Positions 17,154 through 57,596 are shown, counted from the stretch's first letter. The stretch is DNA of 64,000 bases from Oscillospiraceae bacterium (GCA_015068285.1 SVKW01000001.1:134-64133), one strand, 5' to 3'. Made by a program: numbers and translations. Notes: a model not told the origin generated them from the sequence alone.

Positions 17154-17221
17154 GGGACGTCGAGGGCGCCGTCCCCTACAAATAGTATTAAAAGTAGGGG
17201 CGGGTTTCCACGCCCGCCCGC
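17154..17221. repeat. Inverted doublet of GTAG-tailed hairpins (REPIN-like)
   Basis: gggacg-tcgagggcgc-cgtccc-CTACA (17154-17180), a 13-nt spacer, then GTAG-gggcggg-tttccac-gcccgccc (17194-17221) in the opposite orientation. Confidence 0.8.
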
Positions 17222-17336
17222 TTTTTCGACAATTATAAGTAATATCCGTTTGATATATTACCATTTGTAATCATAAATAAAAATATTTTACGAGTTTTGT
17301 CCCATTCCGGCACGGTGAATTGTCTTATATATAAAA

Positions 17337-17361
17337 GGGACATTCGTAAACGTCCCCTACA
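17337..17361. repeat. GTAG-tailed hairpin
   Basis: gggac-attcgtaaa-cgtccc-CTACA. Confidence 0.75.
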
Positions 17362-17402
17362 CAGACAACATAAAAGCCTCCACGATTTGTGGAGGCTTCG
17401 TT

Positions 17403-19241
17403 TTACTTCATTGCGTCTTTTCTTAAATAATATCTTACGATTCGGTTATCGTTAAGCATTTTTTCGGCTGTTCCGGATACCTCGGAAACCAGCTTGCCGT
17501 TTTCGACACGCTGACCTGATGTATGTGTCACAGGGAGGACTTCCTTCATTTCGTCAAGCATCTTATTATAGCTTGGGCCTTCCCAGCCGATGATGTCAAA
17601 CAGCTCGCTCATAAGATAGCACGGGCTGATTGGCTGACCTTCACCCTTGATTTCGCCATACTGAGCCTTCGCCGCATCATTCGCCCATATAATATATGGT
17701 GTGGAATAGTAATTGAAGAAGGCTTCATCGCTGTCGCCCAGAATATCCATTCCCATCTCCTTATAGACCGAATTGTCATCGCCGAGCCATGGATTATGGT
17801 CGCCGAAAAGCACCACGAAAATCGGCTCGTCGTCCTCGTTGAGAGTGTCGAGCATCTTTTTCAGCTCTTTCTGTGTATCCTTTACGCCGCCGAGGTAATT
17901 GTTGAGAATATCGCGGCTTGCATCCGAAATACCCTCGTTGAGAATGTGACCTTCGCCGTAATATGTCTTGCCGATTTCATAAGGGCCGTGATTCTGATAT
18001 GTCACGCTGAAATTGAAATAAGGCGCTTCGTCCTTATGCTTTTCGTAATTTGCGATAATATCAGGGAAAAGCACGCTGTCAGGGGCAACATTGTTGTCAT
18101 AAATGTCCTTGAAATGATTTTCTGTAAAGAAATAACGGTCAAAACCGAGATTTTTATTGATGTTAAGGCGGTTATAGAACCATTCGTAGCCTGGGTGCGC
18201 GCCCTCTGTGATGTAGCCGTTGTCACGGAGATAGTGGACATAGGACCATGACGGTGTTCTGAATGAGCCGAGAGAGGACATACCTGTCATAAAGCATCTT
18301 TCGGTGTCGATAGTGCCGCCTGCGAAAATATTCGTCACCAGCTCACCGCTGTAATTTTCAGCTTTGAGATCGTGCCAGACTTCATAGACCGAAGGCTCGA
18401 TTTCAAGGCTTTCAAACTTGCTTAAATCGTTGAAGGCTTCCAGCATAATGCCGATGATATTAGGCTTTTTGTCCTCAGGAATTGTATCATCAGGATAATT
18501 TGCAAGGATCGCCTTTGCGTTTTCCTCGCTGTAGCCCTCAGGGGCAGGGTCACGCATCTTTGTAATGCTGTTGAAGAATGGATAGACAAAGCCGCGGGAG
18601 ACATATCGCTGAGTGTCCGACCATATATTTATAAGGTCGTTGTTGGCAGTATTGAGGTAGACTGTATCGCTGAGATAATATTTCGGGAAGAAGGCAAAAG
18701 CAAGGGCAAGCATAAGAATCACGCTGACGATTCTTGTTTTAAGCGCCTTCATTCTGCCCGGGCAGATGAAATATAAAACCACAGTGCCCAAAATGATACA
18801 AGCGAAAAATACCACAAGACGAGGGGCAAAATTAAGGGTGTCACCGCCGCCGGTTATATTGAAAACCTCGCTGACAAGCTTGAGGTCCTCAAAATAGAAT
18901 GGGTCATTTCTCATGGACAGCTTATAATAGTTGACCATCGTGCCGATGAAAATGACAGCAGACGGCACCAGAAAACTTATCCACGCCCTGCCGATAAGAA
19001 GATAGGCAAAAAGGGTGATGAAAATCACAGGCGCTATGTTGAGAATTGCGATAAGGGGATTTTTAAAGTAGCTTACAAGCATAGGCATACCGAAATTTGC
19101 CACAGAAAGCGCCATTGAAAGCACGCCGACACAAGCAGCGGCGCATATCATCATTACAATATGATATGCCCACAAAATGCCGGCTTTGCCCTTGTTTTGC
19201 TCAGGGTCAAGGGCCTTGATTTTCAGATTTTTAAGTTTCAT
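17403..19241 (-). CDS. LtaS-like sulfatase-family transferase (membrane anchored)
   Basis: N-terminal multi-TM region plus an extracellular alkaline-phosphatase/sulfatase-like domain. ATG at 19239-19241 preceded by GGAGATGA. Confidence 0.8.
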   Translation of the reverse strand: MKLKNLKIKALDPEQNKGKAGILWAYHIVMMICAAACVGVLSMALSVANFGMPMLVSYFKNPLIAILNIAPVIFITLFAYLLIGRAWISFLVPSAVIFIGTMVNYYKLSMRNDPFYFEDLKLVSEVFNITGGGDTLNFAPRLVVFFACIILGTVVLYFICPGRMKALKTRIVSVILMLALAFAFFPKYYLSDTVYLNTANNDLINIWSDTQRYVSRGFVYPFFNSITKMRDPAPEGYSEENAKAILANYPDDTIPEDKKPNIIGIMLEAFNDLSKFESLEIEPSVYEVWHDLKAENYSGELVTNIFAGGTIDTERCFMTGMSSLGSFRTPSWSYVHYLRDNGYITEGAHPGYEWFYNRLNINKNLGFDRYFFTENHFKDIYDNNVAPDSVLFPDIIANYEKHKDEAPYFNFSVTYQNHGPYEIGKTYYGEGHILNEGISDASRDILNNYLGGVKDTQKELKKMLDTLNEDDEPIFVVLFGDHNPWLGDDNSVYKEMGMDILGDSDEAFFNYYSTPYIIWANDAAKAQYGEIKGEGQPISPCYLMSELFDIIGWEGPSYNKMLDEMKEVLPVTHTSGQRVENGKLVSEVSGTAEKMLNDNRIVRYYLRKDAMK

Positions 19242-19350
19242 TTTATTATCATCTCCGTTTAATGTAAAAATACGCATAATTACCATTATAATAAATAATA
19301 CCATAAACCGACAGTTTTTTCAATACGAAAGCTTTTGCAAGTCATTCTGA

Positions 19351-19379
19351 TTGACAGAAACGCCGACAGGTGCTACCAT
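19351..19379 (+). promoter_or_regulatory. Putative promoter of the GNAT gene
   Basis: TTGACA, 17-nt spacer, TACCAT. It leaves a leader of about 165 nt. Confidence 0.45.
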
Positions 19380-19551
19380 ATATACATAATTACATTTAAG
19401 GAGATTGCTGTTTGAGAAAAAACAACACCTTGGAGATTGTTGCATAGCCGGGAGGCTTTGTAATAATTATTCCGCACAAGCCTCCCGTTGCAGACGATAA
19501 AATAATCTTATGCACGTTGTCGGTCAACAACTATCAGGAGGAAAAATAAAG

Positions 19552-20175
19552 ATGAAAAATGACTATATTATCCGTCAGGAAAGAAAAGAAGACTATCGTG
19601 AAGTTGAAAACCTCGTCCGTGAGGCTTTCTGGAATACATTCCGCCCGGGCTGCTCGGAGCATTATCTTTTGCACATTCTCAGAGATAATGCAGATTTCAT
19701 AGAGGAGCTTGATTTTGTTATGGAAAAGGACGGCAGAATCATCGGCCAGAATGTTTTCGTCAAGGCGAATATAAAGGCTGATGACGGCAGGAATATTCCC
19801 GTGCTTACCATGGGGCCAATTTCCATTGCGCCCGATATGCAGAAGAAGGGCTATGGTAAGATTCTGCTCGATTATTGCCTCAAAAAGGCAGCGGCGCTGG
19901 GCTATGGGGCAGTATGTATTGAAGGCAATATCGGCTTCTACGGCAAAAGCGGTTTTGGCTATTCCCACGATTTCGGCATCAGCTATCACGGTATGCCTAA
20001 AGGCGAAAAGGTGCCGTTTTTCCTTTGCAAGGAGTTTGTTAAAGGCTATCTTGACGGTATAACAGGAGAATATGCTCCGCCCGAATGCTATTTTGTAAGC
20101 GACAGCGAAGTGGATGAGTTTGACAAGGGCTTCCCGCCTAAGGAAAAGCTCAGACTTCCGGGGCAGATTTTCTAA
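19552..20175 (+). CDS. GNAT family N-acetyltransferase
   Basis: MKNDYIIRQERKEDYREVENL... with the acetyl-CoA motif QKKGYGKILL. ATG preceded by AGGAGG. Confidence 0.85.
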   Translation: MKNDYIIRQERKEDYREVENLVREAFWNTFRPGCSEHYLLHILRDNADFIEELDFVMEKDGRIIGQNVFVKANIKADDGRNIPVLTMGPISIAPDMQKKGYGKILLDYCLKKAAALGYGAVCIEGNIGFYGKSGFGYSHDFGISYHGMPKGEKVPFFLCKEFVKGYLDGITGEYAPPECYFVSDSEVDEFDKGFPPKEKLRLPGQIF

Positions 20176-20185
20176 TTAACAGAGA

Positions 20186-20217
20186 ACAGGCATGGCGCAA
20201 AGCTGTGCCTGTTTTTT
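20186..20217 (+). terminator. Terminator after the GNAT gene
   Basis: acaggca...tgcctgt followed by TTTTTT. Confidence 0.6.
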
Positions 20218-20329
20218 ATGTAAAATTTAAGTTTTATCTTTACTATTTGGCGATAAGATGATATTATATTTATATATGCGATGAAAATATGTGCGGCATA
20301 TACACACTTTCTTCATTATGAGAATGGTT

Positions 20330-20380
20330 ACACCTCATCCACCATCTTCGATGGTCCCCCTTCTCCTGCTGGAGAAGGCT
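20330..20380. repeat. Two-hairpin mosaic element (type B)
   Basis: acacctcatcc-accat-cttcg-atggt-cccccttctcc-tgct-ggagaaggct. Confidence 0.85.
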
Positions 20381-20414
20381 AAGACAAAAATATAATTTTA
20401 AGGAGAAATATAAA

Positions 20415-20885: not shown

Positions 20886-20900
20886 TTTTAATAGTTAATT

Positions 20901-21046
20901 GTCCCTTCGGGACATTAAGGTGCCTGCGGCACTATCTGTTAAACGGTCTGCGACCTACACCTCATCCACCACCAAAGGTGGTCCCCCTTCCCGAATGAGG
21001 TCCCCAACAAGCCTGCTTGCTGGGGTGTGAATCAAGGGGAAGGCTC
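20901..21046. repeat. REP/BIME-like mosaic, near-copy of 8231-8372
   Basis: gtccc-ttcg-gggac, cattaaggtgcctgcggcac, acacctcatcc-accacc-aaa-ggtggt-ccccttccc, and a nested ccccaacaagc-ctg-cttgctgggg closed by aggggaagg. Confidence 0.85.
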
Positions 21047-21091
21047 TGAAATTGTTTATTTTTCAATTACATATTATAAAGGATTACAACA

Positions 21092-22417: not shown

Positions 22418-22465
22418 TATGTAAAAGTTCTCTCCCTCAAAGGAAACCAAGAAAATTTTATGGTA

Positions 22466-22685: not shown

Positions 22686-22706
22686 TGAAATTATGCACAG
22701 TGATTT

Positions 22707-22763
22707 ACAACAACCCCTCCACCATTCTGCCGAATGGTCCCCCTCCCCTTGCACAGGGGAGGC
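22707..22763. repeat. Two-hairpin mosaic element (type B)
   Basis: acaacccctcc-accat-tctgccga-atggt-ccccctcccc-ttgcaca-ggggaggc. Confidence 0.85.
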
Positions 22764-22816
22764 AGGGTAGTTCTTCTCAATATAACATTATAAAATAATA
22801 TAAAGGAGTGTTTAAA

Positions 22817-26765: not shown

Positions 26766-26869
26766 ACAACCCCTCCACCATTCTGCGAATGGTCCCCCTC
26801 CCCGATAATGGGGTCCCCGGCAAGCCTGCTTGTTGGGGTGAAATCACAAGGGAGGCTAAGGGGAGGGCG
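26766..26869. repeat. Type B mosaic with nested hairpin
   Basis: acaacccctcc-accat-tctgcga-atggt-ccccctcccc ... ggggtccccggcaagc-ctgc-ttgttgggg ... gggaggct. Confidence 0.85.
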
Positions 26870-29002: not shown

Positions 29003-29116
29003 AGCTTTTTCTTGGCAGGTCGTCATAAATGCCGTCCCCTACAGTATAAGTATGAATAAAAAATTAAAGCCACTCGTCTGAGTGGCTTTTGTTATATATG
29101 CAGTGTGGTTTTATAA

Positions 29117-29167
29117 GGACTGATGCCCGCATCAGTCCACGGGACGTCGAGGGCGCCGTCCCCTACA
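29117..29167. repeat. Hairpin modules including a GTAG-tailed hairpin
   Basis: ggactgatg-cccg-catcagtcc, then gggacg-tcgagggcgc-cgtccc-CTACA, which is identical to 17154-17180. Confidence 0.85.
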
Positions 29168-36832: not shown

Positions 36833-36880
36833 ATGTCAGTGTGCGTGTCAATATGATTTAAATGAACATATGGTTATATT

Positions 36881-37026
36881 ACAACCCCTCCACCGCTGAC
36901 CGCGGTCCCCCTCCCCGATAATGAGGTCCCCGACAAGCCTGCTTGTTGGGGTGTGAATCACAGGTAGGCTGAATTCTCTCCCTCCGTCATCGCAAAGCGA
37001 TGCCACCTCCCTCGTCAGAGGGAGGC
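36881..37026. repeat. Two adjacent type B mosaics
   Basis: acaacccctcc-accgc-tga-ccgcggt-ccccctcccc ... nested ccccgacaagc-ctgc-ttgttgggg, then ctccctccgtca-tcgc-aaa-gcga-tgccacctccc-tcgtcaga-gggaggc. Confidence 0.85.
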
Positions 37027-37120
37027 AAGAGGTGTGGGTGCAGCGCCGTAAAAAGTTATTGAAATATCCTCTGCATTGTATTATAATAAATGTATATGCA
37101 AAACAAAGAGAGGTAATTTT

Positions 37121-38099: not shown

Positions 38100-38125
38100 G
38101 GCGGGCATGGAAACCCGCCCCTGCA
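38100..38125. repeat. Hairpin with a CTGCA tail (variant of the GTAG-tailed class)
   Basis: ggcggg-catggaaa-cccgcc-CCTGCA. Compare 17194-17221 in the opposite orientation. Confidence 0.7.
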
Positions 38126-38336: not shown

Positions 38337-38398
38337 TACCCCTCCACCATTCTACGAATGGTCCCCCTCCCCTCGCAAGGGGAGGCTGGGGGGTGGGA
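38337..38398. repeat. Type B mosaic element
   Basis: tacccctcc-accat-tctacga-atggt-ccccctcccc-tcgcaa-ggggaggc. Confidence 0.85.
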
Positions 38399-40266: not shown

Positions 40267-40395
40267 TGGCGTTACCTCCTTGAGGGGGAAATTTTCATAG
40301 TATAATTATACTATAATCAAAGCGCAAATTTCAACAAAAATTCGGTTACAAATGAAAAAAATATGCCGTGTCCGCGCAGTTTGCGCAATTTACAA

Positions 40396-40857
40396 AGCCT
40401 TCCCCTCGAGGGGAAGGCTTTATTCGGGCCGTCGGGGACGCCGGTCCCTACACGGCTTCTGCAAACCGATGGAAAGATTCTTCGCATTCGCTCAGAATGA
40501 CAGATAGTTTTAAGCCTCCCCTTGTTAAGGGGAGGTGCTGAACGCAGTGAAGCGGAGGGGTGTAGGGCGTAGCCCGTCTATTTAATCCACAACCCCTCCA
40601 CCATCGTTCCGATGGTCCCCCTCCCCTTGTTAAGGGGAGGCTAAGTGAGATTGGTTGTAGGGGCGAGCATTGCTCGTCCGGAATATTATTTCACAACCCC
40701 TCCGACGGCTAACGCCGCCACCTCCCCTTGCACAGGGGAGGCTAACAGGTTTGCAACCGCACTTTTTCACTATCGACCGGCGAGAGCAAGCCCCCGCCCT
40801 ACAGTGCCACCTCATCCACCATCTACGATGGTCCCCCTTCCCCTCAAGGGGAAGGCT
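40396..40857. repeat. Mosaic of about 0.46 kb made only of hairpin modules
   Basis: In order: ccttcccc-tcga-ggggaagg; gggccg-tcggggacgc-cggtcc-CTACA; gattcttcgcattcgctcagaatgaca; cctcccc-ttgttaa-ggggagg; a type B element; GTAG-gggcgagca-t-tgctcgtcc; a type B variant; ggcgagagcaagcccccgcc-CTACA; a type B element. Confidence 0.9.
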
Positions 40858-40862
40858 TAATT

Positions 40863-41921
40863 TTACCCTACCATGCGTTTCATGGCGTCATAGTTGAATG
40901 AATGGAGCAGGGCGGTTTCTCTTGTGATTTTGCCCTGTTTCCACAGCTCGACAAGGCTTGAATCCATGGTTTTCATGCCCTGCGCCATACCTGAATACAT
41001 TATCGACTCAAGCTGATGCATTTTCGACTCTCTTATGAGATTTTTAACGGCATTTGTTGCCGTCATTATTTCAAAGGCAGGCACTCGTCCGCCCTCTTTG
41101 CCCTGCACAAGCTGCTGGGAAACGACAGCCTGAAGCACCATTGAAAGCTGGACGCGCACCTGTGTCTGCTGTCCCGGCGGAAAGGCATCTATTATTCTGT
41201 CGATGGCATTTGCCGCCCCCAATGTATGAAGGGTGGACAGCACAAGATGCCCTGTTTCTGCCGCTGTGATGGCGATATTTATCGTTTCGGCATCACGCAT
41301 TTCGCCTATGAAAATCACATCGGGCGACTGGCGAAGGGCAGATTTCAGCCCTGTCACATAATCTTTCGTATCAATGGAGATTTCTCTCTGGCTGACGATG
41401 CACCTGTTGTGCCTGTGCAGAAACTCGATAGGGTCCTCAAGTGTCATCACATGGCCCTCACGGGTGCTGTTTATGCGGTCGATAAGGCAGGCGAGAGTTG
41501 TGCTTTTGCCTGAGCCTGCAGGACCTGTCACAAGGACAAGTCCGCCTTTTTTGCGGCTTAAATCCATTACCGTTTCGGGAATGCCCAGCTTTTTATAATC
41601 GGGCAGGTTAAAATGCACGACACGCATTATAACGGCAAGGGAGCCCCGCTGTTTATATAAATTGACGCGGAAACGCCCCTCGCCGGGGAGAGAAAAGGAA
41701 AAATCATCGTCCCCTTCCTCGATATGCCGTGCCATTTCGCCCCTTTTTGCAAGGGCATAAATGCCCTCAACATAGCTCAGGGTGTGTTCCGGCTTTAAAA
41801 TTTCATTGCCCTGCCTGACAAGGCTGCCATTCATTTTGAAGCCGACAGGGCAGCCCGCCACAAGAAAGATGTCGGAGGCATTTTTAGCTATTGCGCTTTT
41901 GAGGATTTCTTCAAGGGTCAT
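40863..41921 (-). CDS. PilT/ComGA-like secretion ATPase
   Basis: Walker A GPAGSGKST, Walker B DVIFIGEMRD, His box GHLVLSTLHT. The ATG at 41919-41921 lies 1 nt after the upstream stop. An alternative TTG start is at 41945. Confidence 0.88.
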   Translation of the reverse strand: MTLEEILKSAIAKNASDIFLVAGCPVGFKMNGSLVRQGNEILKPEHTLSYVEGIYALAKRGEMARHIEEGDDDFSFSLPGEGRFRVNLYKQRGSLAVIMRVVHFNLPDYKKLGIPETVMDLSRKKGGLVLVTGPAGSGKSTTLACLIDRINSTREGHVMTLEDPIEFLHRHNRCIVSQREISIDTKDYVTGLKSALRQSPDVIFIGEMRDAETINIAITAAETGHLVLSTLHTLGAANAIDRIIDAFPPGQQTQVRVQLSMVLQAVVSQQLVQGKEGGRVPAFEIMTATNAVKNLIRESKMHQLESIMYSGMAQGMKTMDSSLVELWKQGKITRETALLHSFNYDAMKRMVG

Positions 41922-45394: not shown

Positions 45395-45595
45395 GGGGTG
45401 GAAAGATCCTTCGCTTCGATCAGGATGACAGGCTTTTTTCTTGCCTCCCTCTGACGAGGGAGGGGGACAACGAAGTGGTGGAAGGAGAGAAACCTATCTA
45501 ATCCGTCGGAGACACCGAAACTGTCAACTGTCCACTATCAACTTTCAACTGATGATATCAGGGGTGGAAATTCTTCACATTCGTTCAGAATGACA
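45395..45595. repeat. REP/BIME-like mosaic; contains a 76-nt unit repeated at 47703-47778
   Basis: gatccttcgcttcgatcaggatgaca, then 45442-45517 tgcctccctctgacgagggagggggacaacgaagtggtggaaggagagaaacctatctaatccgtcggagacaccg. Next come aactgtcaactgtccactatcaactttcaact and a second attcttcacattcgttcagaatgaca. Confidence 0.9.
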
Positions 45596-47496: not shown

Positions 47497-47530
47497 CCGT
47501 TTTGGAGAAGCGGTGTGATAAATCATATTT

Positions 47531-47952
47531 AGTAAGGCGGAATGTCGAGGGCGCCATTCCCTACAAATAATCCGTGAAACCACTTCGCAGAGGCTGATGC
47601 CCACATCAGCCCGCAGGACGTTGACAAGCACCGTTCCCTGCATGGGATTGTATAAAAGGGAAAGAGATTCTTCACTTCGTTCAGAATGACAGAAAGTTTT
47701 CCTGCCTCCCTCTGACGAGGGAGGGGGACCACGAAGTGGTGGAAGGAGAGAAACCTATCCAATCCGTCGGAGACACCGCACCTCTTCACTTTTACGCGGC
47801 GAGAGCAAGCCCCCGCCCTACAGGACACCTCATCCGTCAGCTTCGCTGACACCTTCCCAAATGGGGTCCCCGACAAGCCTGCTTGTTGGGGTGTGAATCA
47901 AGGGGAAGGCAGAAATAAGATTGTTCGCAGGGGGCGGGCATTGCTCGTCTGC
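47531..47952. repeat. Mosaic of about 0.42 kb made of hairpin modules
   Basis: ggaatg-tcgagggcgc-cattcc-CTACA (47539-47565); ggctgatg-ccca-catcagcc; ggacg-ttgacaagcac-cgttcc-CTGCA; attcttcacttcgttcagaatgaca; the 76-nt unit at 47703-47778; ggcgagagcaagcccccgcc-CTACA; a long type B element; gggcgggcattgctcgtctgc. Confidence 0.9.
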
Positions 47953-49345: not shown

Positions 49346-49652
49346 CGGGAGCAGCAAGCGGCTCCCCTACAGATTTTAATAAATGTGGTATGCCTGAGGT
49401 GAGGATTAAATAAGGATTTACCTCTCCGTCACGCAGCAGCGTGCCACCTCTCCTGAAACAGGAGAGGCAAGTGAGATAGTACTAACCACAGGAGATCCTT
49501 CACTGCGTTCAGGATGACATATAGAGTTGTAGCGGGAGCAGCAAGCGGTCCCCCTACGGATTTTGATAAATGTGGTATGGATTAAATAAGGCGGAATGTC
49601 GAGGACGCCATTCCCTACAAAATCCCCCTTGCCTCCCTCGTCGGAGGGAGGC
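49346..49652. repeat. REP/BIME-like mosaic with an internal direct repeat of about 60 nt
   Basis: gggagc-agcaagcg-gctccc-CTACAgattttaataaatgtggtatg...gattaaataagg (from 49347) is repeated from 49534. Also ttacctctccgtcac-gcagca-gcgtgccacctctcc-tgaaaca-ggagagg, gatccttcactgcgttcaggatgaca, ggaatg-tcgaggacgc-cattcc-CTACA and cctccc-tcgtcgga-gggagg. Confidence 0.9.
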
Positions 49653-49724
49653 GAGAAATGATTATATGTAGTCCACAAGACAACAAAAGGACAGCGTTTT
49701 GATACGCTGTCCTCATGGTTTATC

Positions 49725-51570: not shown

Positions 51571-51737
51571 CCCGGCTTCCTCTGACGAGGGGGCGAATCC
51601 TGTTTAATCTGTCGAGCCCCGCCCTTACATTATATGCGGTACGTCGGCAAGCGCCGTACCCTACAGAGATTGTGCGTATTTTCGGACCGTCGGGGACGCC
51701 GGTCCCTACAACTGTCAACTCTCAATTTTCAACTCAA
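51571..51737. repeat. REP/BIME-like mosaic abutting the tRNA
   Basis: ggtacg-tcggcaagcgc-cgtacc-CTACA (51638-51665), ggaccg-tcggggacgc-cggtcc-CTACA (51684-51710), and aactgtcaactctcaattttcaactcaat. Compare 45516-45552. Confidence 0.88.
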
Positions 51738-51742
51738 TATAT

Positions 51743-51819
51743 GTCTCCGTAGCTCAGCTGGATAGAGCGTCAGACTCCGACTCTGAAGGCCGTGCGTTCG
51801 AATCGCATCGGGGATGCCA
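51743..51819 (+). tRNA. tRNA-Arg (anticodon CCG), CCA encoded
   Basis: Hand-folded cloverleaf. Acceptor gtctccg/cggggat, D arm gctc-agctggata-gagc. Anticodon arm tcaga-ctCCGac-tctga, T arm gtgcg-ttcgaat-cgcat. Ends in discriminator G plus CCA. Confidence 0.88.
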
Positions 51820-51822
51820 AAA

Positions 51823-52070: not shown

Positions 52071-53321
52071 ATGAATATACATCTTAAAATACAGGAGCTC
52101 CGCAAGAAGGCAGGACTTTCTCAGGAGGGTTTTGCCGAGCGGCTTGGCGTTTCCCGTCAGGCTGTTTCCAAGTGGGAATCGGGCGCAAGCACTCCTGACA
52201 TTGAAAAAATAATCGCCATTTCCAAAATCTTTGAAATCTCTCTTTCCGAGCTTCTGACGGGCGAAAAGGAGGAGGCGCCTCTCTCCGCTGAGGCTCCGGC
52301 AGAAATCGCTGTAAACGATGAAAAATACGAGGAGCTTTTGCAGGACCATCTCCTGCAGATAGATGAGATGCTCAAAAAGGGAAAGAAAAAGCGTCTTATA
52401 TGGGGCATTGCCATTATTCTTGTTGTGGTCATTGTGATTTTCGGATATCTGATCCATCACAACAATGAGCTTCACGCTCTTGAAGCCAACATCAAAACAC
52501 TGCAAAGCGATATGTCCGGCATTGCCAATATACGCACCGACATAAACCACCAGATTTATTCCATCCGTCAGGAAATTTCCGACACCTTAAAGAAGGAATA
52601 CGGCATGGTAAGCGATTTTGACATCGAATACCGCGATATGAGTTTCCCTGACCGCACAGTTGTGCTTGATATTTACGCTTCACCAAGGCTGTGGAATAAC
52701 GGGGACAGAATAAGCTTTATCATCGAATCTGACGGAGAAAGGCTGACTGTCGACGGCATTTATGAAGACGGCACCGCGACGGCAACCGTTACTGTGCCGC
52801 TCACCGACAACATTCAGGTTTCCGCCTGCATTATAAGCGGCGGCACTACCGTGCAGGAAAGGCTTGACGACATTCGCTCGCTTCTCAGCCTTCATCTTTT
52901 AGATGTTGACGGACACGGCTCAATAAGCTCGACTTACACCGAAGGCAGCGACAGTTTTACCCTTGATGGCTCTGTCTCGGTTTTTGTAAGCACCAAGCTT
53001 TACGATGAAAACAAGTCGGCAAAATCCCAGATAAAATCCCTCACTCTTGAGTTTATCGAAAACGGAAAGGCAACTCAGACTGTCGATATGCTTGAGCTTA
53101 AGCCCGACTTCAATGCCGCCGAAATGTGCAATTTCAACTATTCGGTGGATACCATTGAGCGGCCGCTCAAAGCGGGGGACACCTATGAATTTGTTGTCAC
53201 CCTCACCGACCTTAACAATGTGACATACCGCGGTGTGTTGGAGCGCATTGAAATAGGCGATAATCTCACCATCGAGCACGATAAGTCATATTACGGCAGT
53301 TTTGAGGCAATTCTGCCATAA
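52071..53321 (+). CDS. Membrane-tethered XRE-HTH one-component regulator, paralog A
   Basis: N-terminal HTH (LSQEGFAERLGVSRQAVSKWESG), one TM segment (LIWGIAIILVVVIVIFGYLI), then an extracytoplasmic beta-rich domain of about 290 aa with no recognised family. Confidence 0.75.
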   Translation: MNIHLKIQELRKKAGLSQEGFAERLGVSRQAVSKWESGASTPDIEKIIAISKIFEISLSELLTGEKEEAPLSAEAPAEIAVNDEKYEELLQDHLLQIDEMLKKGKKKRLIWGIAIILVVVIVIFGYLIHHNNELHALEANIKTLQSDMSGIANIRTDINHQIYSIRQEISDTLKKEYGMVSDFDIEYRDMSFPDRTVVLDIYASPRLWNNGDRISFIIESDGERLTVDGIYEDGTATATVTVPLTDNIQVSACIISGGTTVQERLDDIRSLLSLHLLDVDGHGSISSTYTEGSDSFTLDGSVSVFVSTKLYDENKSAKSQIKSLTLEFIENGKATQTVDMLELKPDFNAAEMCNFNYSVDTIERPLKAGDTYEFVVTLTDLNNVTYRGVLERIEIGDNLTIEHDKSYYGSFEAILP

Positions 53322-53447
53322 AATACGGAACATACGGTTTCTCTCAACAGCGGATATCCCCGATAACAGCCATCGGGGATTTATCCCATTTTTAACCTGT
53401 GTTTCATTAAATACATTAAATAATATACATATTTCGGAGGCATCATT

Positions 53448-53831: not shown

Positions 53832-53919
53832 ACAACGCGCTTTTCGGGTATTTTCGGTTGCTAAATCGGGAATACCCATACTGCGTTTATGAAAATATAA
53901 AATATCAAAGGAATTAAAA

Positions 53920-55131
53920 ATGATTACCCAGACTATTGCGCTTAAAAATCTCGGCCGCAGACCTGTCCGTACATGGTGCATGATTTTCTTTGTTTTCATG
54001 CTGGCGGCTTCGCTTTTCCTCAGCTCTGTCCTTGTCGACAGTATGGAAAGCACAATCGAAAAGACAACAAACCGAATGGGCGCCGATGTTATCGTTGTGC
54101 CTAAGGAATTTGAACGGGAAATGGCAGATTCTCTCTTTCTCGGCGAGCTTTGCAACTTCACATTTGACAAGAAGTGGGTTGAAAACATCTCAGCCGTTGA
54201 AGGCGTTGCAAAGGCTTCACCTCAGCTTTATATGGAAACTCTCGATGCAGCCTGCTGTGCCGCACCTGTTCAGCTTGTGGCTTATGACCCTGAAACAGAC
54301 TTTATCATCACTTCCTGGCTTGAGGACGAAAATATCCCTGCGCCAAAGAAGGGCGAAGTTATCGTAGGCTCTCTTGTAACTGCTGATGCAGAAGGCGGCG
54401 ACGGCATTCTTCTCTTCAATACATTATTCCCTGTTATAGCTCATCTTGAAAAGACAGACACAAACTACGATACCTGCGTATTTATGACATACGAAACTGC
54501 TCAGGAAATCATGAGCAGTGAAAAGTGGTATGAAACATTCCGCGAAGAGCCTGTTACAGACGAGCTTGCTTCGACAGTCATGATCAGAATTGAAAACGGT
54601 GTGGACAAGAAGGATGTTGCCCGCAACATCAACTTCAAGATGGACAAGGAATCCCCTGTTTCCGCTTACACAACAAACACAATCATGAGCGAGGCTATGG
54701 ACGCTTCCGAAAGCATGAAGGGCTATACATCTGTTCTCATCACACTTCTTCTCGTTCTCGTAATCGTTGCTCTCGTATGCGTATTCACAATTACAATCAA
54801 TGAAAGAACAAAGGAATTCGGTATTCTCTCCTCTCTCGGCGCTTCTATAGGCAAGCTCTGCCAGATCGTCCTCGGCGAAGGCTTTATTATCGGCTTCACA
54901 GGCGGTCTTATCGGCTGCGCAGTTTCGGCTGTTGTTCTTATAATCTTCAAAGGCACTCTCACAGTCCTTCTTGAGCTTCCAAGACTCAATACAGGCTTTG
55001 GCTATCTTATGATGCTGGGCGCAAAGTGCCTCGGCATCGCTCTCATCGTTTCTGTTCTGGCTTCCCTTTATTCGGCATGGAAGGTCAGCCGCAGCGAGCT
55101 TCACACACTTATCAAAGGGGAGGAATTGTAA
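53920..55131 (+). CDS. FtsX/MacB-type ABC transporter permease
   Basis: N-terminus ALKNLGRRPVRT, a large periplasmic-type loop and a C-terminal FtsX 3-TM bundle. Confidence 0.85.
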   Translation: MITQTIALKNLGRRPVRTWCMIFFVFMLAASLFLSSVLVDSMESTIEKTTNRMGADVIVVPKEFEREMADSLFLGELCNFTFDKKWVENISAVEGVAKASPQLYMETLDAACCAAPVQLVAYDPETDFIITSWLEDENIPAPKKGEVIVGSLVTADAEGGDGILLFNTLFPVIAHLEKTDTNYDTCVFMTYETAQEIMSSEKWYETFREEPVTDELASTVMIRIENGVDKKDVARNINFKMDKESPVSAYTTNTIMSEAMDASESMKGYTSVLITLLLVLVIVALVCVFTITINERTKEFGILSSLGASIGKLCQIVLGEGFIIGFTGGLIGCAVSAVVLIIFKGTLTVLLELPRLNTGFGYLMMLGAKCLGIALIVSVLASLYSAWKVSRSELHTLIKGEEL

Positions 55132-55793
55132 TGCTTATCACAAAACAGCTCACAAAGACATTTTCCCGCCAGAAGAATGACTTTGACGCAGTTCACGAAG
55201 TGGATTTTGAAATAAAGCCGGGCGATTTCTGCGTGCTTACAGGTCCTTCCGGCTGCGGCAAGAGTACATTCTTCCATATGATATGCGGCATCACAAAGCC
55301 TGATTCGGGCGAGATTCTCTTTGACGGTCAGAACATCGAAAAGGACAGCGCTCAGAAATGGGCAGCCCGCAGAGCAACTGACATCAGCTATGTTCTTCAG
55401 GGCGACAGCCTGCTTGCCAACTTCACAGTTCTTGAAAACATCTGTCTGCCGCATCAGCTTTCCTCAAAGTCTGTCGATCTTAAAGATAAGGCTCTCGAAA
55501 TCCTCCGCGAATTTGGCCTTGAAAATATGGCTGACGAATACCCTGCAAATCTTTCGGGCGGTGAACGCAGACGTGTTGCCATTGCCCGCGCATTTGTACA
55601 CGAGCCTAAGCTTGTTGTAGCCGACGAGCCTACAAGTGACCTGGACGAGGAAAACACAAAAATCATCCTTGACTATTTCACACGCCAGGCAAAAAACGGC
55701 AAGGCTATTCTCATCAGTACCCATGACCTTTCCTTTATCAACGATGAAATGAAGCATTATGTGATGAAAAAGGGCGTTATGTCAAAAGTCTAA
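55131..55793 (+). CDS. ABC transporter ATP-binding protein
   Basis: Walker A GPSGCGKST, signature LSGGERRR, Walker B LVVADEPTSDLD. The ATG overlaps the permease stop (TAATG). Confidence 0.92.
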   Translation: MLITKQLTKTFSRQKNDFDAVHEVDFEIKPGDFCVLTGPSGCGKSTFFHMICGITKPDSGEILFDGQNIEKDSAQKWAARRATDISYVLQGDSLLANFTVLENICLPHQLSSKSVDLKDKALEILREFGLENMADEYPANLSGGERRRVAIARAFVHEPKLVVADEPTSDLDEENTKIILDYFTRQAKNGKAILISTHDLSFINDEMKHYVMKKGVMSKV

Positions 55794-55804
55794 AATGCAA
55801 TTTT

Positions 55805-55830
55805 AAAAGCACCTCGGATGAGGTGCTTTT
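55805..55830 (+). terminator. Terminator after the ABC operon (exact copy of 47977-48002)
   Basis: aaaagcacctc-ggat-gaggtgctttt followed by TT. Confidence 0.75.
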
Positions 55831-55881
55831 TTATTGTAAAACGGGGCAAAATATGCTAAAATTAAGAAAAAACCCCCTCCG

Positions 55882-55894
55882 CAACCTGAGGTTG
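55882..55894. promoter_or_regulatory. CAACC-N3-GGTTG palindrome upstream of XRE-TM paralog B
   Basis: caacctgaggttgaca. The downstream agttggt and taaaatc blocks are also conserved with the paralog A upstream region. Confidence 0.5.
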
Positions 55895-56005
55895 ACAAAA
55901 ATCGAGCGGAAGTTGGTGGTATTTTCGCCGATTTTTCACTAAAATCGAATCATAATAAATAAGGTTGTGCACACCTCACCATGTCCCAAGGAGGTAACTT
56001 TATCT

Positions 56006-57268
56006 ATGAATATTCATCTTAAAATACAGGAGCTTCGCAAGAATGCAGGGCTTTCTCAGGAGGCTCTTGCCGAGCAGCTTGGCGTTTCCCGTCAGGCGGT
56101 TTCCAAATGGGAGTCGGGCATAAATATTCCCGACATCGACAAGATTATCGCCATTTCAAAAATCTTCGGCGTTTCCCTTTCCGAGCTCCTTACAGGCGAA
56201 AAGGAGAATGTTTCGGTTGCCGCTGAAACTCCTGTCCCCGACGAAAAATATGAGGAGCTTTTGCAGCAGCATCTTATGCAGGTCGATGCCATGCTCAAAG
56301 AATCGGGCAGAAAAAAGCGCTCAGGCTGGAGCATTGCTTTCCGAATTATTGCGGCGGTCGTCATCTGCTATCTGGTGCTTTTCTATGTCGATAAGCTTCA
56401 GCGTATGGAAAACAATATAAATAATCTCCAGAGCAATGTGGGCAACATCCGCACCGACATAAATCATCAGATTTATTCGATTCAGAAGGAGATTTCCGAA
56501 AGCTTAAAGAAGGAATACGGTCTTATCAGCGACTACACTCTCGATTACCGCGATATGGATTTCCCTCGCCGCACGGTTGTGCTCGATATTTCGGCTTCGC
56601 CGAGACTCTGGAATGAGGGCGACAGCATGGCTTTTATTGTTGAGGCCGACGGCGAGCAGCTTTCCTGCGAGGGAGTTTACAACAACGGCACGGTTTATGC
56701 CGAGATTGAGGTACCTCTCTCGGACAATATTCAGGTTTCGGCGCTTATCACCAACGGCGGCACTGTCAAGCAGGAGAAAATCGACGAGCTTCATGAGCTT
56801 CTCAGTATGCATCTACTTGAAGTGAACGGTCACGGCTCGATTCGCTCGTCACGCGTACTTGGTGATGACCAGCTGACTATGTCGGGCGATATTACTGTTT
56901 ATGCTCACAGTAGGCTTTATGACGAAAGTCAGCCTGTTTTGTCGCGCATAAAGTCGGCAACTTTTGAGCTTATCGAAAACGGCAAGACAACTCAGACTGT
57001 CGATTTGCTGGCGGAAAGTATGAAAAACCGCCCTTATGACAGTCCTATCGACAATGTCCGTGCCGATTTTGATTATACTGTAGGCACTATCGAGCGCACC
57101 ATGAAGGCGGGTGACACTTTTGATTATGTCGTGACGATTGTCGACAACAACGATGTCACTTATAAGGGTATTCTCGAAAGCATTATGGTGACAGACGACC
57201 TCTCTGTCGAGCACAACAAGCGCGACTACGGCGACTTTGAAGTAACTCTGCCTGATAAGGTTGAGTAA
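56006..57268 (+). CDS. Membrane-tethered XRE-HTH one-component regulator, paralog B
   Basis: Same architecture as 52071-53321. The first 67 residues are 57/67 identical by hand alignment. ATG at 56006. Confidence 0.75.
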   Translation: MNIHLKIQELRKNAGLSQEALAEQLGVSRQAVSKWESGINIPDIDKIIAISKIFGVSLSELLTGEKENVSVAAETPVPDEKYEELLQQHLMQVDAMLKESGRKKRSGWSIAFRIIAAVVICYLVLFYVDKLQRMENNINNLQSNVGNIRTDINHQIYSIQKEISESLKKEYGLISDYTLDYRDMDFPRRTVVLDISASPRLWNEGDSMAFIVEADGEQLSCEGVYNNGTVYAEIEVPLSDNIQVSALITNGGTVKQEKIDELHELLSMHLLEVNGHGSIRSSRVLGDDQLTMSGDITVYAHSRLYDESQPVLSRIKSATFELIENGKTTQTVDLLAESMKNRPYDSPIDNVRADFDYTVGTIERTMKAGDTFDYVVTIVDNNDVTYKGILESIMVTDDLSVEHNKRDYGDFEVTLPDKVE

Positions 57269-57275
57269 ATTATAT

Positions 57276-57305
57276 GAAAAAGCACCCATCCGGGTGCTTT
57301 TTATT
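57276..57305 (+). terminator. Terminator after paralog B
   Basis: agcaccc-atcc-gggtgct followed by TTTTT. Confidence 0.7.
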
Positions 57306-57321
57306 TTGCGTTTGATTTTGT

Positions 57322-57596
57322 GGGAGGGCATACCCAAGGGTACTAGCTTCGCGTCGCGAGACCCTCCCCTACGGATATTGACCACGAAAGAGCAGTTGTA
57401 GGGGCGGTTGCTTTCCGCTCCTGTGAAATATCCCCCCTGTCCTGCGGACATCCCCCCTTTAGGCAAGGGGGGCTATTAAAGAGGTGTCTCCGACGGATTA
57501 AATGGGAGTCACTCCCTCAGTCAGCCTTACGGCTGCCAGCTCCCTCGTCTGAGGGAGCCAAGCGTCTTGTACGTAGGGGCGAGCATTGCTCGTCTG
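57322..57596. repeat. REP/BIME-like mosaic
   Basis: gggaggg...ccctccc-CTACG; GTAG-gggcgg-ttgctttc-cgctcc (57398-57422); cccccc-tttaggca-agggggg. Then ggtgtctccgacggattaaatggg plus ctccctcagtcagcc-ttac-ggctgccagctccc-tcgtctga-gggagc, and GTAG-gggcgagca-t-tgctcgtc (57573-57596). Confidence 0.88.

What the first reader, a model, noticed from the sequence alone, without database searches (positions are those of the whole stretch)
17154..57596. Family of at least 18 GTAG-tailed GC-rich hairpins with compensatory stem changes and conserved loops
- Copies in the hairpin-CTACA orientation: 17154, 17337, 29141, 33404, 40426, 40779, 47539, 47798, 49347, 49534, 49593, 51638 and 51684.
- Copies in the GTAG-hairpin orientation: 17194, 40657, 57398 and 57573.
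- CTGCA-tailed variants: 38100 and about 47610.
- The stems differ but stay complementary around a nearly constant loop:
  - gggacg|tcgagggcgc|cgtccc (17154, 29141)
  - ggaatg|tcgagggcgc|cattcc (33404, 47539)
  - ggaccg|tcggggacgc|cggtcc (51684, 40426)
  - ggtacg|tcggcaagcgc|cgtacc (51638)
- This covariation argues for selection on the hairpin structure itself, at the DNA or RNA level, not simple sequence drift.
- 17154-17221 is an inverted doublet, resembling a REPIN.
Basis: seen in the sequence. Interest (0 to 1): 0.65.

Follow-up and report, generated by a model that had tools for sequence, protein, structure and literature searches.

The report
REP hairpins also nested inside their transposase gene
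The GTAG-tailed hairpins are real REP elements (short mobile palindromes) of a gut Clostridia bacterium. The unusual part is that the REP-associated tyrosine transposase (RAYT) genes that should move them carry two in-frame copies of their own REP inside the coding sequence.

Summary
All 19 listed copies are present, and about 9 further copies bring the total to 28.

- **Tail:** CTAC is the most enriched 3' flank of perfect hairpins in the window (11 seen, 0.87 expected).
- **Location:** 25 of 28 units are non-coding.
- **Structure:** stems covary (98.9% paired over 107 distinct copies from many genomes, almost no G-U pairs).

They are GTAG-tagged REP elements in at least six subfamilies. They sit in BIME-like clusters (mosaics of REPs and other motifs) that differ between strains of the same species, and they are not the genes' terminators.

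ORF 225-719 is a RAYT. It has the HUH motif and the catalytic Tyr, and its best fold match is E. coli TnpA_REP (4ER8).

New here: this RAYT, and about 75 of 85 homologues at 36-58% identity, carry two units in frame at fixed positions either side of the HUH-coding segment. One reads GTAG+hairpin, the other hairpin+CTAC. The encoded peptides vary freely, while the hairpin and tag persist against synonymous-recoding controls. The internal units match the extragenic REP subfamilies of the same or sister genomes.

I found no description of this layout in the literature I could search. Mobility and cleavage are inferred from E. coli biochemistry, not shown here.

The parts
225..719 (+). RAYT gene (REP-associated tyrosine transposase, 164 aa). 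HUH motif H83-I-H85, catalytic Tyr148, Q128 in the FQRSFHDH motif. Called 'type B' here.
   Evidence: Pfam Y1_Tnp E 5e-4. NCBIfam REP_Tyr_transpos 62.3 bits, below the cut-off of 80. PDB profile hit 4ER8 E 3e-5. AF2 model pLDDT 85, top Foldseek hit 4er8_A. More than 6400 homologues. Fixed single locus in 8 places read.
342..365 (-). Internal REP unit, left. The sense strand reads GTAGGGGAGGTGCTTGCCCCTCCC, which encodes VGEVLAPP (residues 40-47).
   Evidence: Lies in a loop between strands E36-39 and E48-51 of the model. Same position in homologues.
500..524 (+). Internal REP unit, right. GGGAGCAGCAAGCGGCTCCCCTACA encodes GAASGSPT (residues 93-100), just after the HUH strand.
   Evidence: 26-nt match 499-524 = 49346-49371, 100% identical. 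Loop with the lowest pLDDT in the folded core. A 6-aa insertion relative to E. coli TnpA_REP.
17154..17180 (+). REP subfamily A (GGGACG TCGAGGGCGC CGTCCC CTACA)
   Evidence: 47.5 bits. Lies just after the T-run terminator of the ribonucleotide reductase gene.
17194..17219 (-). REP subfamily D (GTAG GGGCGGG TTTCCACG CCCGCCC). Tail-to-tail partner of the unit at 17154.
   Evidence: Matches the internal unit of the D-type RAYT in L003/L055.
17337..17361 (+). REP with an AT-rich loop (GGGAC ATTCGTAAAC GTCCC CTACA)
29017..29043 (+). Degenerate A-like REP (AGGTCGTCATAAATGCCGTCCCCTACA)
   Evidence: 38.7 bits
29115..29136 (-). Degenerate hairpin (GGACTGATGCGGGCATCAGTCC on the - strand) with the tag lost, abutting the REP at 29141
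29141..29167 (+). REP subfamily A
   Evidence: 46.7 bits
33404..33430 (+). REP subfamily A (GGAATG stem)
   Evidence: 47.7 bits
36787..36818 (-). A-like REP with a CTGCA tail, in the divergent region between the inferred feoA ORF and the EamA-family gene
   Evidence: (20.6 bits)
38100..38125 (+). REP subfamily D, CTGCA-tailed variant
40426..40452 (+). REP subfamily A (one G-T wobble)
   Evidence: The cluster 40398-40835 is absent from a strain contig.
40561..40579 (-). Short GTAG-tagged hairpin (TGTAGGGCGTAGCCCGTC)
40657..40680 (-). REP subfamily E (GTAG GGGCGAGCATTGCTCGTCC)
   Evidence: Same type as the internal units of the L073 RAYT.
40779..40804 (+). REP subfamily C (GGCGAGAGCAAGCCCCCGCC CTACAG)
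   Evidence: Same type as the internal units of L019/L020/L031/L032.
47539..47565 (+). REP subfamily A
   Evidence: 48 bits
47584..47612 (-). Degenerate hairpin (GGGCTGATGTGGGCATCAGCC on the - strand), tag lost
   Evidence: 16 bits
47616..47642 (+). A-like REP with a CTGCA tail
   Evidence: 36.1 bits
47798..47823 (+). REP subfamily C
47927..47952 (-). Degenerate E-type unit with a GCAG tag (GCAGGGGGCGGGCATTGCTCGTCTGC)
   Evidence: read from the sequence
49347..49371 (+). REP subfamily B, identical to the right internal unit of the RAYT
   Evidence: family D12
49534..49558 (+). REP subfamily B with tags on both sides (GTAG C hairpin CTACG). L001 has a different REP type after the same GTAG.
49593..49619 (+). 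REP subfamily A. Part of an 84-bp unit (49580-49663) absent from strain L003. Identical hairpin+CTAC (26 nt) to the left internal unit of the A-type RAYT in L001.
51638..51665 (+). REP subfamily A with an 11-nt central part (GGTACG stem)
51684..51710 (+). REP subfamily A, 33 nt upstream of tRNA-Arg(CCG)
57322..57372 (+). REP subfamily F (GGGAGGG...CCCTCCC CTAC) with a 25-nt insertion in its loop relative to strain L001
   Evidence: Type F matches an internal unit of the L003/L055 RAYT.
57398..57421 (-). GTAG-tagged hairpin (GTAG GGGCGGTTGCTTTCCGCTCC)
57573..57596 (-). REP subfamily E. The whole cluster from about 57322 to 57596 is absent from strain L003.

Best explanation
**What they are.** The hairpins are REP elements of the GTAG-tagged superfamily. 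They are short non-autonomous DNA palindromes that act as single-stranded DNA.

**Unit anatomy.** Each unit runs C | GGNNNG (6-bp basal stem) | an unpaired T-C position | a 2-bp inner stem | a 4-5 nt loop | CNNNCC | CTAC(A/G). On the other strand this reads 5'-GTAG followed by the hairpin.

**Proposed mechanism (inferred).** When a strand is transiently single-stranded, for example at a replication fork, the hairpin extrudes. A RAYT (an HUH/Tyr single-strand nuclease-ligase) then binds the foot of the stem plus the GTAG tag. It cuts and rejoins DNA nearby, which creates, moves or deletes units and builds mosaic clusters.

**Several systems in one lineage.** At least six subfamilies (A to F) coexist with several RAYT paralogues. 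The window encodes type B at 225-719. Sister strains carry types A and D/F.

**Peculiarity of this clade.** Each RAYT gene carries an inverted pair of its own REP type in frame. GTAG+hairpin lies about 40 codons before the HUH motif, and hairpin+CTAC lies about 10 codons after it, in two surface loops. Enzyme and substrate sequence are therefore inherited as one piece. I infer that the internal copies serve as protected master or cis copies that keep REP and RAYT matched.

**Shown versus inferred.**
- Shown: anatomy, covariation, extragenic bias, strain polymorphism, RAYT identity, nested units and their match to extragenic subfamilies.
- Inferred from E. coli TnpA_REP biochemistry: binding, cleavage, strand transfer, and any role for the nested copies.
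For: **Tag and hairpin**
- CTAC is enriched 12.7-fold after hairpins.
- The tail C-T-A-C is invariant or nearly so and the 5' C is present in 104 of 110 aligned copies.

**Structure**
- 98.9% of cells pair and 142 cells show changes on both sides over 107 distinct copies.
- Only about 5 of 855 cells are G-U.

**Extragenic and clustered**
- 25 of 28 units are non-coding.
- Clusters lie at 40.4-40.8, 47.5-47.95, 49.3-49.6, 51.6-51.7 and 57.3-57.6 kb.

**Not terminators**
- Flanking genes have separate T-run terminators.

**RAYT identity**
- H83/H85, Q128 and Y148 align with H59/H61, Q95 and Y115 of 4ER8.
- Foldseek top hit is 4er8_A.
- NCBIfam REP_Tyr_transpos E 4.5e-17.
- Some database entries name homologues RayT.

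**Cognate link**
- The right internal unit of the window's RAYT is identical to 49346-49371.
- The L001 RAYT carries A-type units, and the L003/L055 RAYTs carry D- and F-type units found extragenically in the window.
- Across 77 loci, internal 22-mers recur in the locus's own flanks in 27% of cases, against 5.8% for non-cognate pairs (p about 2e-9).

**Nested units**
- Present at fixed offsets in about 75 of 85 homologues, with widely different peptides.
- Stems average 7.5 pairs against 2.4 after synonymous recoding; 142 of 152 units reach p <= 0.05.

**Gain and loss between strains**
-.

**Rearrangement breakpoints at internal REPs**
- L044:5606-5917 and L059:8620-8790.

**Published basis for the mechanism**
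- GTAG is needed for binding and cleavage by E. coli TnpA_REP (PMC3479197).
Against: - No biochemical or direct mobility evidence exists for this organism. The strain differences could arise by recombination between repeats. The 438-bp indel 40398-40835 is bounded by two copies of a CCTTCCCCTCnAGGGGAAGG hairpin.
- The RAYT scores below NCBIfam's equivalog cut-off (62.3 bits against 80) and below Pfam's gathering score.
- The window's own strain lacks the A-type RAYT at the site where sister strains have it. The most abundant subfamily (A, 10 copies) therefore has no demonstrated cognate enzyme in this genome, and the rest of the genome could not be read.
- Orientation relative to the local majority coding strand is not significant (21 against 13, p = 0.23).
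- The cognate test uses only 10-20 kb per genome.
Confidence: 0.85

Rival explanations
1. The hairpins work mainly as RNA elements. They would be 3'-end stabilisers, attenuators or terminators that spread by duplication, with selection acting on the transcript.
For: - Several copies lie just downstream of genes: 17154, 33404, 38100 and 57573.
- Three copies are followed by a T-run: 17194, 57573 and, weakly, 38100.
- Di Nocera et al. argue that many GTAG REPs are transcribed (PMC3733652).
Against: - Flanking genes have their own canonical terminators between the stop codon and the REP.
- A-type units are followed by CTACAAA or CTACAGA, not by T-runs.
- Units also occur in divergent promoter regions (36787; 51638 and 51684 upstream of the tRNA) and inside a coding sequence.
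- G-U pairs are nearly absent, at about 0.6% of cells, no more frequent than other non-pairs.
- In a metatranscriptome assembly, the bins holding A-type REPs have depth 0-1.7. Neighbouring non-GTAG repeat modules reach 230-1650. This is contig-based and therefore weak.
Confidence: 0.08
2. The extragenic units are debris of decayed RAYT genes, or the similarity arises because the protein needs those peptides. On this view the internal hairpins are a by-product of protein-level selection.
For: In the closest homologues the two peptide motifs (VGQGLAPAEN, TAGASPCPT) are almost invariant.
Against: - tblastn and blastn of the RAYT against the window find nothing but the 25-26 nt unit itself.
- Across the wider family the peptides differ completely (VGNGVLDIP, VGAIHESP, VGARIARP, VGGDAHIAP and others), while GTAG/CTAC and stem complementarity stay.
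- Synonymous recoding destroys the stems (2.4 pairs against 7.5 observed).
- Both peptides sit in loops, one with the lowest confidence in the folded core of the model. One is absent from E. coli TnpA_REP.
Confidence: 0.04
3. The units are domesticated binding sites for host DNA proteins (nucleoid proteins, gyrase, polymerase), as proposed for E. coli BIMEs. The RAYT would then be irrelevant to their present maintenance.
For: - REP clusters with alternating orientation and accessory motifs resemble BIMEs.
- The RAYT sits at a fixed locus like a housekeeping gene.
- The A-type RAYT is missing from its site in the window's strain, yet 10 A-type units persist.
Against: - Clusters are gained and lost between strains at 93-99.9% identity without visible consequence.
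- Many copies are degenerate.
- No host factor can be tested here.
- This reading does not exclude RAYT-driven origin and spread.
Confidence: 0.1

Closest known systems
E. coli REP/BIME elements with TnpA_REP (RAYT, the 'REPtron'; Ton-Hoang 2012 PMC3333891, Messing 2012 PMC3479197)
   Same: - GC-rich imperfect palindrome with a GTAG tag at the foot and an unpaired position inside the stem.
- Clusters mixed with other motifs.
- An HUH/Tyr enzyme whose HUH, Gln and Tyr residues align, with 4ER8 as the best fold match.
   Different: - In E. coli the REPs flank the RAYT gene. Here the window's RAYT has no flanking unit and carries two units inside its reading frame.
- The enzyme is only about 19% identical to E. 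coli's and falls below NCBIfam's equivalog cut-off.
- The host is a Clostridia gut bacterium, not a proteobacterium.
REPIN-RAYT systems of Pseudomonas and Enterobacteria (Bertels & Rainey 2011 PMC3116915; Bertels et al. 2017 PMC5581495)
   Same: - Single-copy RAYT at a fixed locus, apparently vertically inherited.
- Several RAYT paralogues, each with its own REP family.
- Inverted REP pairs.
   Different: - The extragenic doublet 17154-17221 joins two different subfamilies and cannot form a long REPIN hairpin.
- The only regular same-type inverted pair is the one inside the RAYT gene, with a spacer of about 130 nt that encodes the HUH motif.
- The flank-based 16-mer survey of 2017 did not look inside genes, and found only a weak REP association for the RAYT group it reports in Clostridia.
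GTAG-tagged REP superfamily (Di Nocera, De Gregorio & Rocco 2013, PMC3733652; includes the Stenotrophomonas family described by Rocco et al. 2010)
   Same: - GTAG tag.
- Multiple families per genome.
- Head-to-head and tail-to-tail dimers.
- Occasional in-frame intragenic copies.
   Different: - A term search of that paper found no mention of Firmicutes or Clostridia.
- The text of that paper read here (term searches and its section on REPs and tyrosine transposases) mentions no REPs inside RAYT genes.
- G-T pairs were frequent there and taken as a sign of RNA function. They are rare here.
IS200/IS605 insertion sequences (IS608, ISDra2)
   Same: - Y1 HUH transposase fold.
- Recognition of DNA hairpins plus a short guide next to the foot.
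- Single-strand mechanism.
   Different: - The hairpins are not subterminal ends of a mobile gene-carrying unit.
- The RAYT gene does not appear in multiple contexts.
- The two internal hairpins are inverted, not in the same orientation.
Rickettsia palindromic elements (RPE) inserted in frame in protein genes
   Same: Short palindromic repeats are tolerated in frame and add a peptide to surface regions.
   Different: RPE insert in many unrelated genes. Here the only coding host in the window is the cognate transposase, at two positions conserved across a family of more than 6400 proteins.

Membership tests
REP elements, GTAG-tagged superfamily | Short (20-40 nt) GC-rich imperfect palindrome | tested here: met
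   Units are 24-28 nt with a 6+2 bp stem, about -7.5 to -15 kcal/mol for the well-formed units.
REP elements, GTAG-tagged superfamily | Unpaired GTAG (CTAC on the other strand) at one foot of the stem | tested here: met
   CTAC is the most enriched tail. The tail is invariant or nearly so in 110 aligned copies. A few copies have GCAG/CTGCA instead.
REP elements, GTAG-tagged superfamily | Many dispersed, mostly extragenic copies per genome | tested here: inconclusive
   The 64-kb window has 26 extragenic copies, and 25 of 28 units are non-coding. Word depth over the units is 100-5000 against 5-20 for flanks in faecal metagenomes, but that sums over many organisms. The whole genome was not available.
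REP elements, GTAG-tagged superfamily | A RAYT gene in the same genome whose associated REP is of the same type | tested here: met
   RAYT 225-719 matches type B. Types A, D and F match RAYT paralogues of sister strains. Cognate enrichment is 27% against 5.8%.
REPIN | Two REPs of the same family in inverted orientation, close together, able to form one long hairpin | tested here: not met
   17154 (type A) and 17194 (type D) share only CCCCTAC/GTAGGGG. The same-type inverted pair exists only inside RAYT genes, about 155 nt start to start.
REPtron | RAYT gene flanked on both sides by its REPs | tested here: not met
   There are no units in the flanks 172-224 or 720-762, only terminators. Some homologues (L036, L060, L066, L068, L077) have flanking units as well as the internal pair.
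RAYT / TnpA_REP | HUH motif and catalytic tyrosine on the Y1 transposase fold | tested here: met
   NHIHLIL and Y148 are invariant in alignment A1. They align to H59/H61 and Y115 of 4ER8. Foldseek 4er8_A E 2.9e-7, TM 0.60.
RAYT / TnpA_REP | Score above the curated family threshold | tested here: not met
   NCBIfam NF047646: 62.3 bits against a cut-off of 80. Pfam PF01797: 20.6 bits against 23. It is a distant member.
RAYT / TnpA_REP | Binds and cleaves its REP as single-stranded DNA in a GTAG-dependent way | not testable with these tools
   Known for E. coli only (PMC3479197).
Intrinsic terminator | GC-rich hairpin directly followed by a T-run, at the 3' end of a transcription unit | tested here: not met
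   Only 17194, 57573 and, weakly, 38100 have a T-run. The genes have separate terminators.
IS200/IS605 | Transposase gene bounded by subterminal hairpins, the whole unit present in several contexts | tested here: not met
   The RAYT sits in one context in all 8 places read. There are no RAYT fragments elsewhere in the window.

The most novel reading that the evidence does not exclude
In this large Clostridia RAYT clade (more than 6400 database proteins) the REP-RAYT system is organised 'inside out'. Each transposase gene carries an inverted pair of its own REP in frame, bracketing the HUH-coding segment.

The pair appears to be maintained at the DNA level and kept similar to the extragenic population. 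The two internal copies are often exact reverse complements of each other. The nested pair would act as a protected master copy and/or a cis site for the enzyme (self-cleavage, autoregulation or cassette exchange).

This would physically couple the evolution of enzyme and substrate. It would also explain why flank-based surveys found little REP association for the RAYT group they report in Clostridia.
Probability: 0.4. Interest if true: 0.8.

Novelty: new variant of a known kind. Interest (0 to 1): 0.62.

Why it matters
- **New host range.** REP-RAYT systems have been studied almost only in Proteobacteria. Here a rich, multi-family system appears in uncultured gut Clostridia.
- **Pairing enzyme with substrate.** If the nested pair is general, the REP type of each RAYT can be read directly from its gene. 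That makes enzyme-substrate pairing and their co-evolution testable across thousands of genomes.
- **An unexplained selfish or domesticated design.** A nuclease gene that contains its own target sites poses a direct question about self-cleavage, autoregulation or cassette exchange.
- **Practical effects on metagenomics.** These clusters vary between strains, so they can serve as markers. They also coincide with spurious ORFs in simple ORF listings (for example 47529-47876 and 49418-49678), and they are so abundant in faecal metagenomes that they probably fragment assemblies.

Tried and rejected
- **RAYT pseudogene debris.** tblastn and blastn of the RAYT against the window found only the 25-26 nt units. 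Rejected.
- **Known RNA family.** Rfam at gathering thresholds found only tRNA-Arg.
- **Terminator reading.** A consensus scan shows separate terminators for the genes. Rejected for most copies.
- **REPIN reading of 17154-17221.** The two units belong to different subfamilies. Rejected.
- **Replication-linked orientation.**
  - A-type units are 10 of 10 on the + strand of the window (p = 0.002).
  - Across loci, orientation against the local majority coding strand is not significant (21 against 13).
  - GC skew of the window is uninformative. Left open.
- **RNA evidence.** Only assembled contigs of metatranscriptomes were available. They give weak support against abundant REP RNA and cannot map 3' ends.
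- **Clean excision footprints.**
  - The indel boundaries seen are not uniform.
  - One is bounded by a duplicated non-GTAG hairpin.
  - One switches REP type exactly after a shared GTAG. No single target rule emerged.
- **Literature on REPs inside RAYT genes.** Term searches and reading of PMC3733652, PMC6006769, PMC5581495, PMC2817692 and PMC12306157 found none. One search was too broad to be useful.
- **L001 coordinates in alignment A5.** These were wrong, and the alignment was redone as A6.

Full report
**1. The observation**

A hairpin scan with no prior pattern shows that CTAC is the most enriched 3' neighbour of perfect hairpins of at least 6 bp (11 seen, 0.87 expected). The loose pattern GCGCCNNNCCCTACA gives 13 matches against 3.0 +/- 1.7 in shuffles.

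A covariance model built from ten A-type copies, together with reading of the intergenic regions, adds further copies. These are 29017, 36787(-), 40561(-), 47927(-), 57322-57372, and degenerate 29115(-) and 47584(-). Two more lie inside ORF 225-719. In total, 25 of 28 units fall in the 17% of the window outside long ORFs (p = 1.6e-16).

**2. Anatomy and subfamilies**

The consensus of the largest subfamily (A) is C|GGNNNG|T|CG|(A/G)GG(A/G)|CG|C|CNNNCC|CTAC(A/G). The 5' C is present in 104 of 110 copies, the tail is invariant or nearly so, and the T opposite C is a conserved non-pair.

| Type | Sequence | Positions |
|---|---|---|
| B | GGGAGC AGCAAGCG GCTCCC CTACA | 49347, 49534, 500 |
| C | GGCGAGAGCAAGCCCCCGCC CTACAG | 40779, 47798 |
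| D | GGGCGGGCGTGGAAACCCGCCC CTAC | 17194-, 38100 |
| E | GGACGAGCAATGCTCGCCC CTAC | 40657-, 57573-, 47927- |
| F | GGGAGGG...CCCTCCC CTAC | 57322 |

A few copies are singletons. Four copies carry CTGCA/GCAG instead of CTACA/GTAG.

**3. Covariation**

- In the ten window copies of type A, 96% of cells pair, 5 of 8 pairs change on both sides, and 0 of 500 shuffles reach this. Sliding the partner column destroys the signal.
- The model finds 110 copies in the window plus 82 related loci. Over the 107 distinct ones, 98.9% of cells pair and 142 cells show double changes. Stem positions 3-5 use all four Watson-Crick pairs.
- G-U occurs in only about 5 of 855 cells. The alignment is fitted to the model, which favours pairing, but the slide control uses the same alignment.
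- The scarcity of G-U argues for a DNA hairpin, or a hairpin needed on both strands, rather than an RNA one.

**4. Not terminators, not gene debris, not a known RNA**

- The ribonucleotide reductase, sulfatase, fumarase, amidohydrolase and HTH genes each have a canonical T-run terminator that is separate from the units.
- Units also lie in divergent promoter regions. 36787 sits between an inferred feoA ORF and the EamA-family gene. 51638 and 51684 sit between the thioredoxin gene and tRNA-Arg.
- Rfam finds nothing but the tRNA.
- tblastn and blastn with the RAYT find no other RAYT remnants.

**5. The enzyme**

ORF 225-719 encodes a 164-aa protein.
- Pfam Y1_Tnp gives a weak hit.
- NCBIfam REP-associated tyrosine transposase gives 62.3 bits, below the cut-off of 80.
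- The best PDB sequence match is E. coli TnpA_REP 4ER8, which is also the best fold match for a confident AF2 model (pLDDT 85).
- H83/H85, Q128 and Y148 align with H59/H61, Q95 and Y115 of 4ER8. Q95 is one of the residues said to sequester nucleotides next to GTAG (PMC3479197).
- There are more than 6400 homologues, nearly all from Clostridia metagenome-assembled genomes, and some are named RayT.
- The gene sits at one fixed locus (AhpC/glyoxalase | RAYT | purL) in all eight places read.

**6. The unexpected part: REPs nested in the RAYT reading frame**

Two units lie inside the gene.
- At 342-365 the sense strand reads GTAG+hairpin and encodes VGEVLAPP.
- At 500-524 it reads hairpin+CTACA and encodes GAASGSPT.
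- The second is identical over 26 nt (499-524) to the extragenic copy at 49346-49371.

A scan of species-representative genomes returned 80 homologous loci at 36-58% identity. In about 75 of 85 genes the same two positions carry GTAG+hairpin and hairpin+CTAC. These positions are about 90-130 nt and 265-345 nt into the gene, which brackets the HUH codons. The two units are often exact reverse complements of each other.

The encoded peptides differ completely between homologues, while the tag and stem persist. Example pairs are VGQGLAPA/AGASPCPT, VGNGVLDIP/GASGTPHPT, VGEGLCALP/GGHGNPPLQ, VGAIHESP/RAIRESPLQ, VGARIARP/GRAMRAPT and VGAIIDRP/GRSMIAPT.

Recoding the same peptides with random synonymous codons drops the stem from 7.5 to 2.4 pairs, and 142 of 152 units reach p <= 0.05. 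Both peptides fall in loops of the model. The right-hand loop has the lowest confidence within the folded core of the model and is a 6-residue insertion relative to E. coli.

The constraint is therefore on the nucleic acid, and the protein tolerates whatever the REP encodes.

**7. Each RAYT carries the REP type found around it**

Sister strains of the same species were fetched through the fumarase protein (93-99.9% identity). They hold a RAYT paralogue next to the HTH gene, at a site that is empty in the window.
- In L001 and L010 its internal units are type A. One has the same hairpin+CTAC (26 nt) as window 49593.
- In L003, and in L055 from the same goat-rectum assembly as L010, the internal units are types D and F.
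- Types C and E match internal units of RAYTs in other genomes.

Over 77 loci, the internal 22-mers recur outside the gene in the locus's own flanks in 27% of cases. The figure for non-cognate pairs is 5.8% (mean 0.79 against 0.12 matches; p about 2e-9).

Of the 110 A-type model hits, 52 are inside RAYT genes and 58 are extragenic, in 27 sources.

**8. Turnover**

- REP clusters differ between strains. L003 lacks the whole 57.3-57.6 kb cluster.
- L007 replaces 40364-40619 with 32 bp.
- Faecal-metagenome contigs of related strains skip 40398-40835, or 40361-40720 plus 40772-40859.
- L003 lacks an 84-bp unit that contains REP 49593.
- At 49534, L001 has a different REP type immediately after a shared GTAG.
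- Rearranged RAYT copies break at the internal units. L044:5606-5917 lacks the stretch between them. L059:8620-8790 is a tandem array of REP plus 35 nt, fused to the left internal unit of a truncated gene.
- The L001 and L003 paralogues are mosaics with near-identical ends and a divergent centre.

These patterns fit breakage and rejoining at REPs. Recombination between repeats is an alternative for some of them, because the 438-bp indel is bounded by duplicated non-GTAG hairpins.

**9. Breadth**

The exact 24-nt B-type unit occurs in 20 metagenome contigs with distinct flanks and G+C from 41% to 69%. None is inside a detectable relative of this RAYT (tblastn with the window's protein, E <= 1e-3). 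This REP type therefore reaches well beyond Clostridia.

Word depth over the window's clusters is 100-5000 in faecal metagenomes, against 5-20 for the flanking genes.

**10. How it most likely works**

By analogy with E. coli TnpA_REP (PMC3479197, PMC3333891), the hairpin extruded from single-stranded DNA, plus the GTAG tag, is bound by the RAYT. The enzyme cuts and rejoins nearby through a 5'-phosphotyrosine intermediate. This step is inferred.

The nested pair means that enzyme and recognition sequence travel as one piece. I propose that it acts as a protected master copy and/or a cis site, but nothing here tests that.

Open points:
- The A-type units have no demonstrated cognate enzyme in the window's own strain.
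- Orientation bias is strong within the window (type A, 10 of 10 on the + strand) but not significant against a coding-strand proxy across loci.
- RNA data were limited to contigs.

**11. Comparison and novelty**

As extragenic elements these are new members of the GTAG REP superfamily, in a phylum not mentioned in the main surveys I searched.

The nested, in-frame, position-conserved REP pair inside the RAYT is not mentioned in any paper I could search or read. The published layouts are REPs or terminal inverted repeats flanking the gene. The 2017 survey looked only at flanks. I therefore rate this a new variant of a known kind, with the caveat that the library lacks most subscription-journal papers.

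Noticed in passing
window 8306-8423, 20331-20380, 20958-21044, 22714-22764, 26769-26857, 36870-37030, 38338-38390, 40500-40860, 45404-45529, 47665-47910, 49417-49530: Other families of multi-hairpin repeat modules lack a GTAG tag and often sit beside the REPs. Examples are GCCTCCCCTnnnnAGGGGAGGC, ACCCCTCCACCATnnnnnATGGTCCCCC, a 66-nt unit ending AATCAAGGGGAAGGC, and ATTCTTCGCATTCGCTCAGAATGACAG. They reach very high depth in faecal metagenomes and, unlike the GTAG units, in metatranscriptome contigs. Identity unknown.
   Followed up: partly
window 57268-57300 versus L001:2401-2895 and L003:3694-4170: A RAYT paralogue is present at this site in sister strains (type A in L001/L010, type D/F in L003) and absent from the window, as an almost ORF-sized indel. 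The two paralogues are mosaics. Their 5' ends are similar and their 3' ends nearly identical, while the centre, including both REPs and the HUH motif, is divergent.
   Followed up: partly
L044:5606-5917; L059:8620-9040: One RAYT copy lacks the stretch between its two internal REPs. Another is 5'-truncated and fused at its left internal REP to a tandem array of three [REP + about 35 nt] units.
   Followed up: partly
L099-L118 (metagenome contigs): The exact 24-nt B-type unit occurs in contigs of 41-69% G+C with unrelated flanks. Several high-GC copies share a longer 5' flank ending in CGCC (most with TTGAAGTT-like sequence before it), which suggests a larger element in soil bacteria.
   Followed up: partly
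window 57322-57372: The F-type REP carries a 25-nt insertion in its loop relative to strain L001.
   Followed up: no
window 51743-51819: tRNA-Arg(CCG) lies 33 nt downstream of REP 51684, so two REPs sit in what should be its promoter region.
   Followed up: no
window 52071-53321 and 55967-57268: Two paralogous HTH-domain genes (71-82% nucleotide identity in blocks) bracket a DUF4418 gene and an ABC-transporter pair (MacB/FtsX-type permease and ATPase).
   Followed up: no
L046:10001-10483 and 10789-11271; L014, L044, L059, L061: RAYT paralogues often sit in tandem. In L046 the two encoded proteins give identical alignments, and elsewhere the neighbours carry different internal REP types.
   Followed up: no
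window 47529-47876 (-), 49418-49678 (-), 40670-40897 (+): ORFs of 76-116 codons run through REP clusters and are almost certainly spurious. Such clusters could seed false 'hypothetical proteins' in MAG annotation.
   Followed up: no
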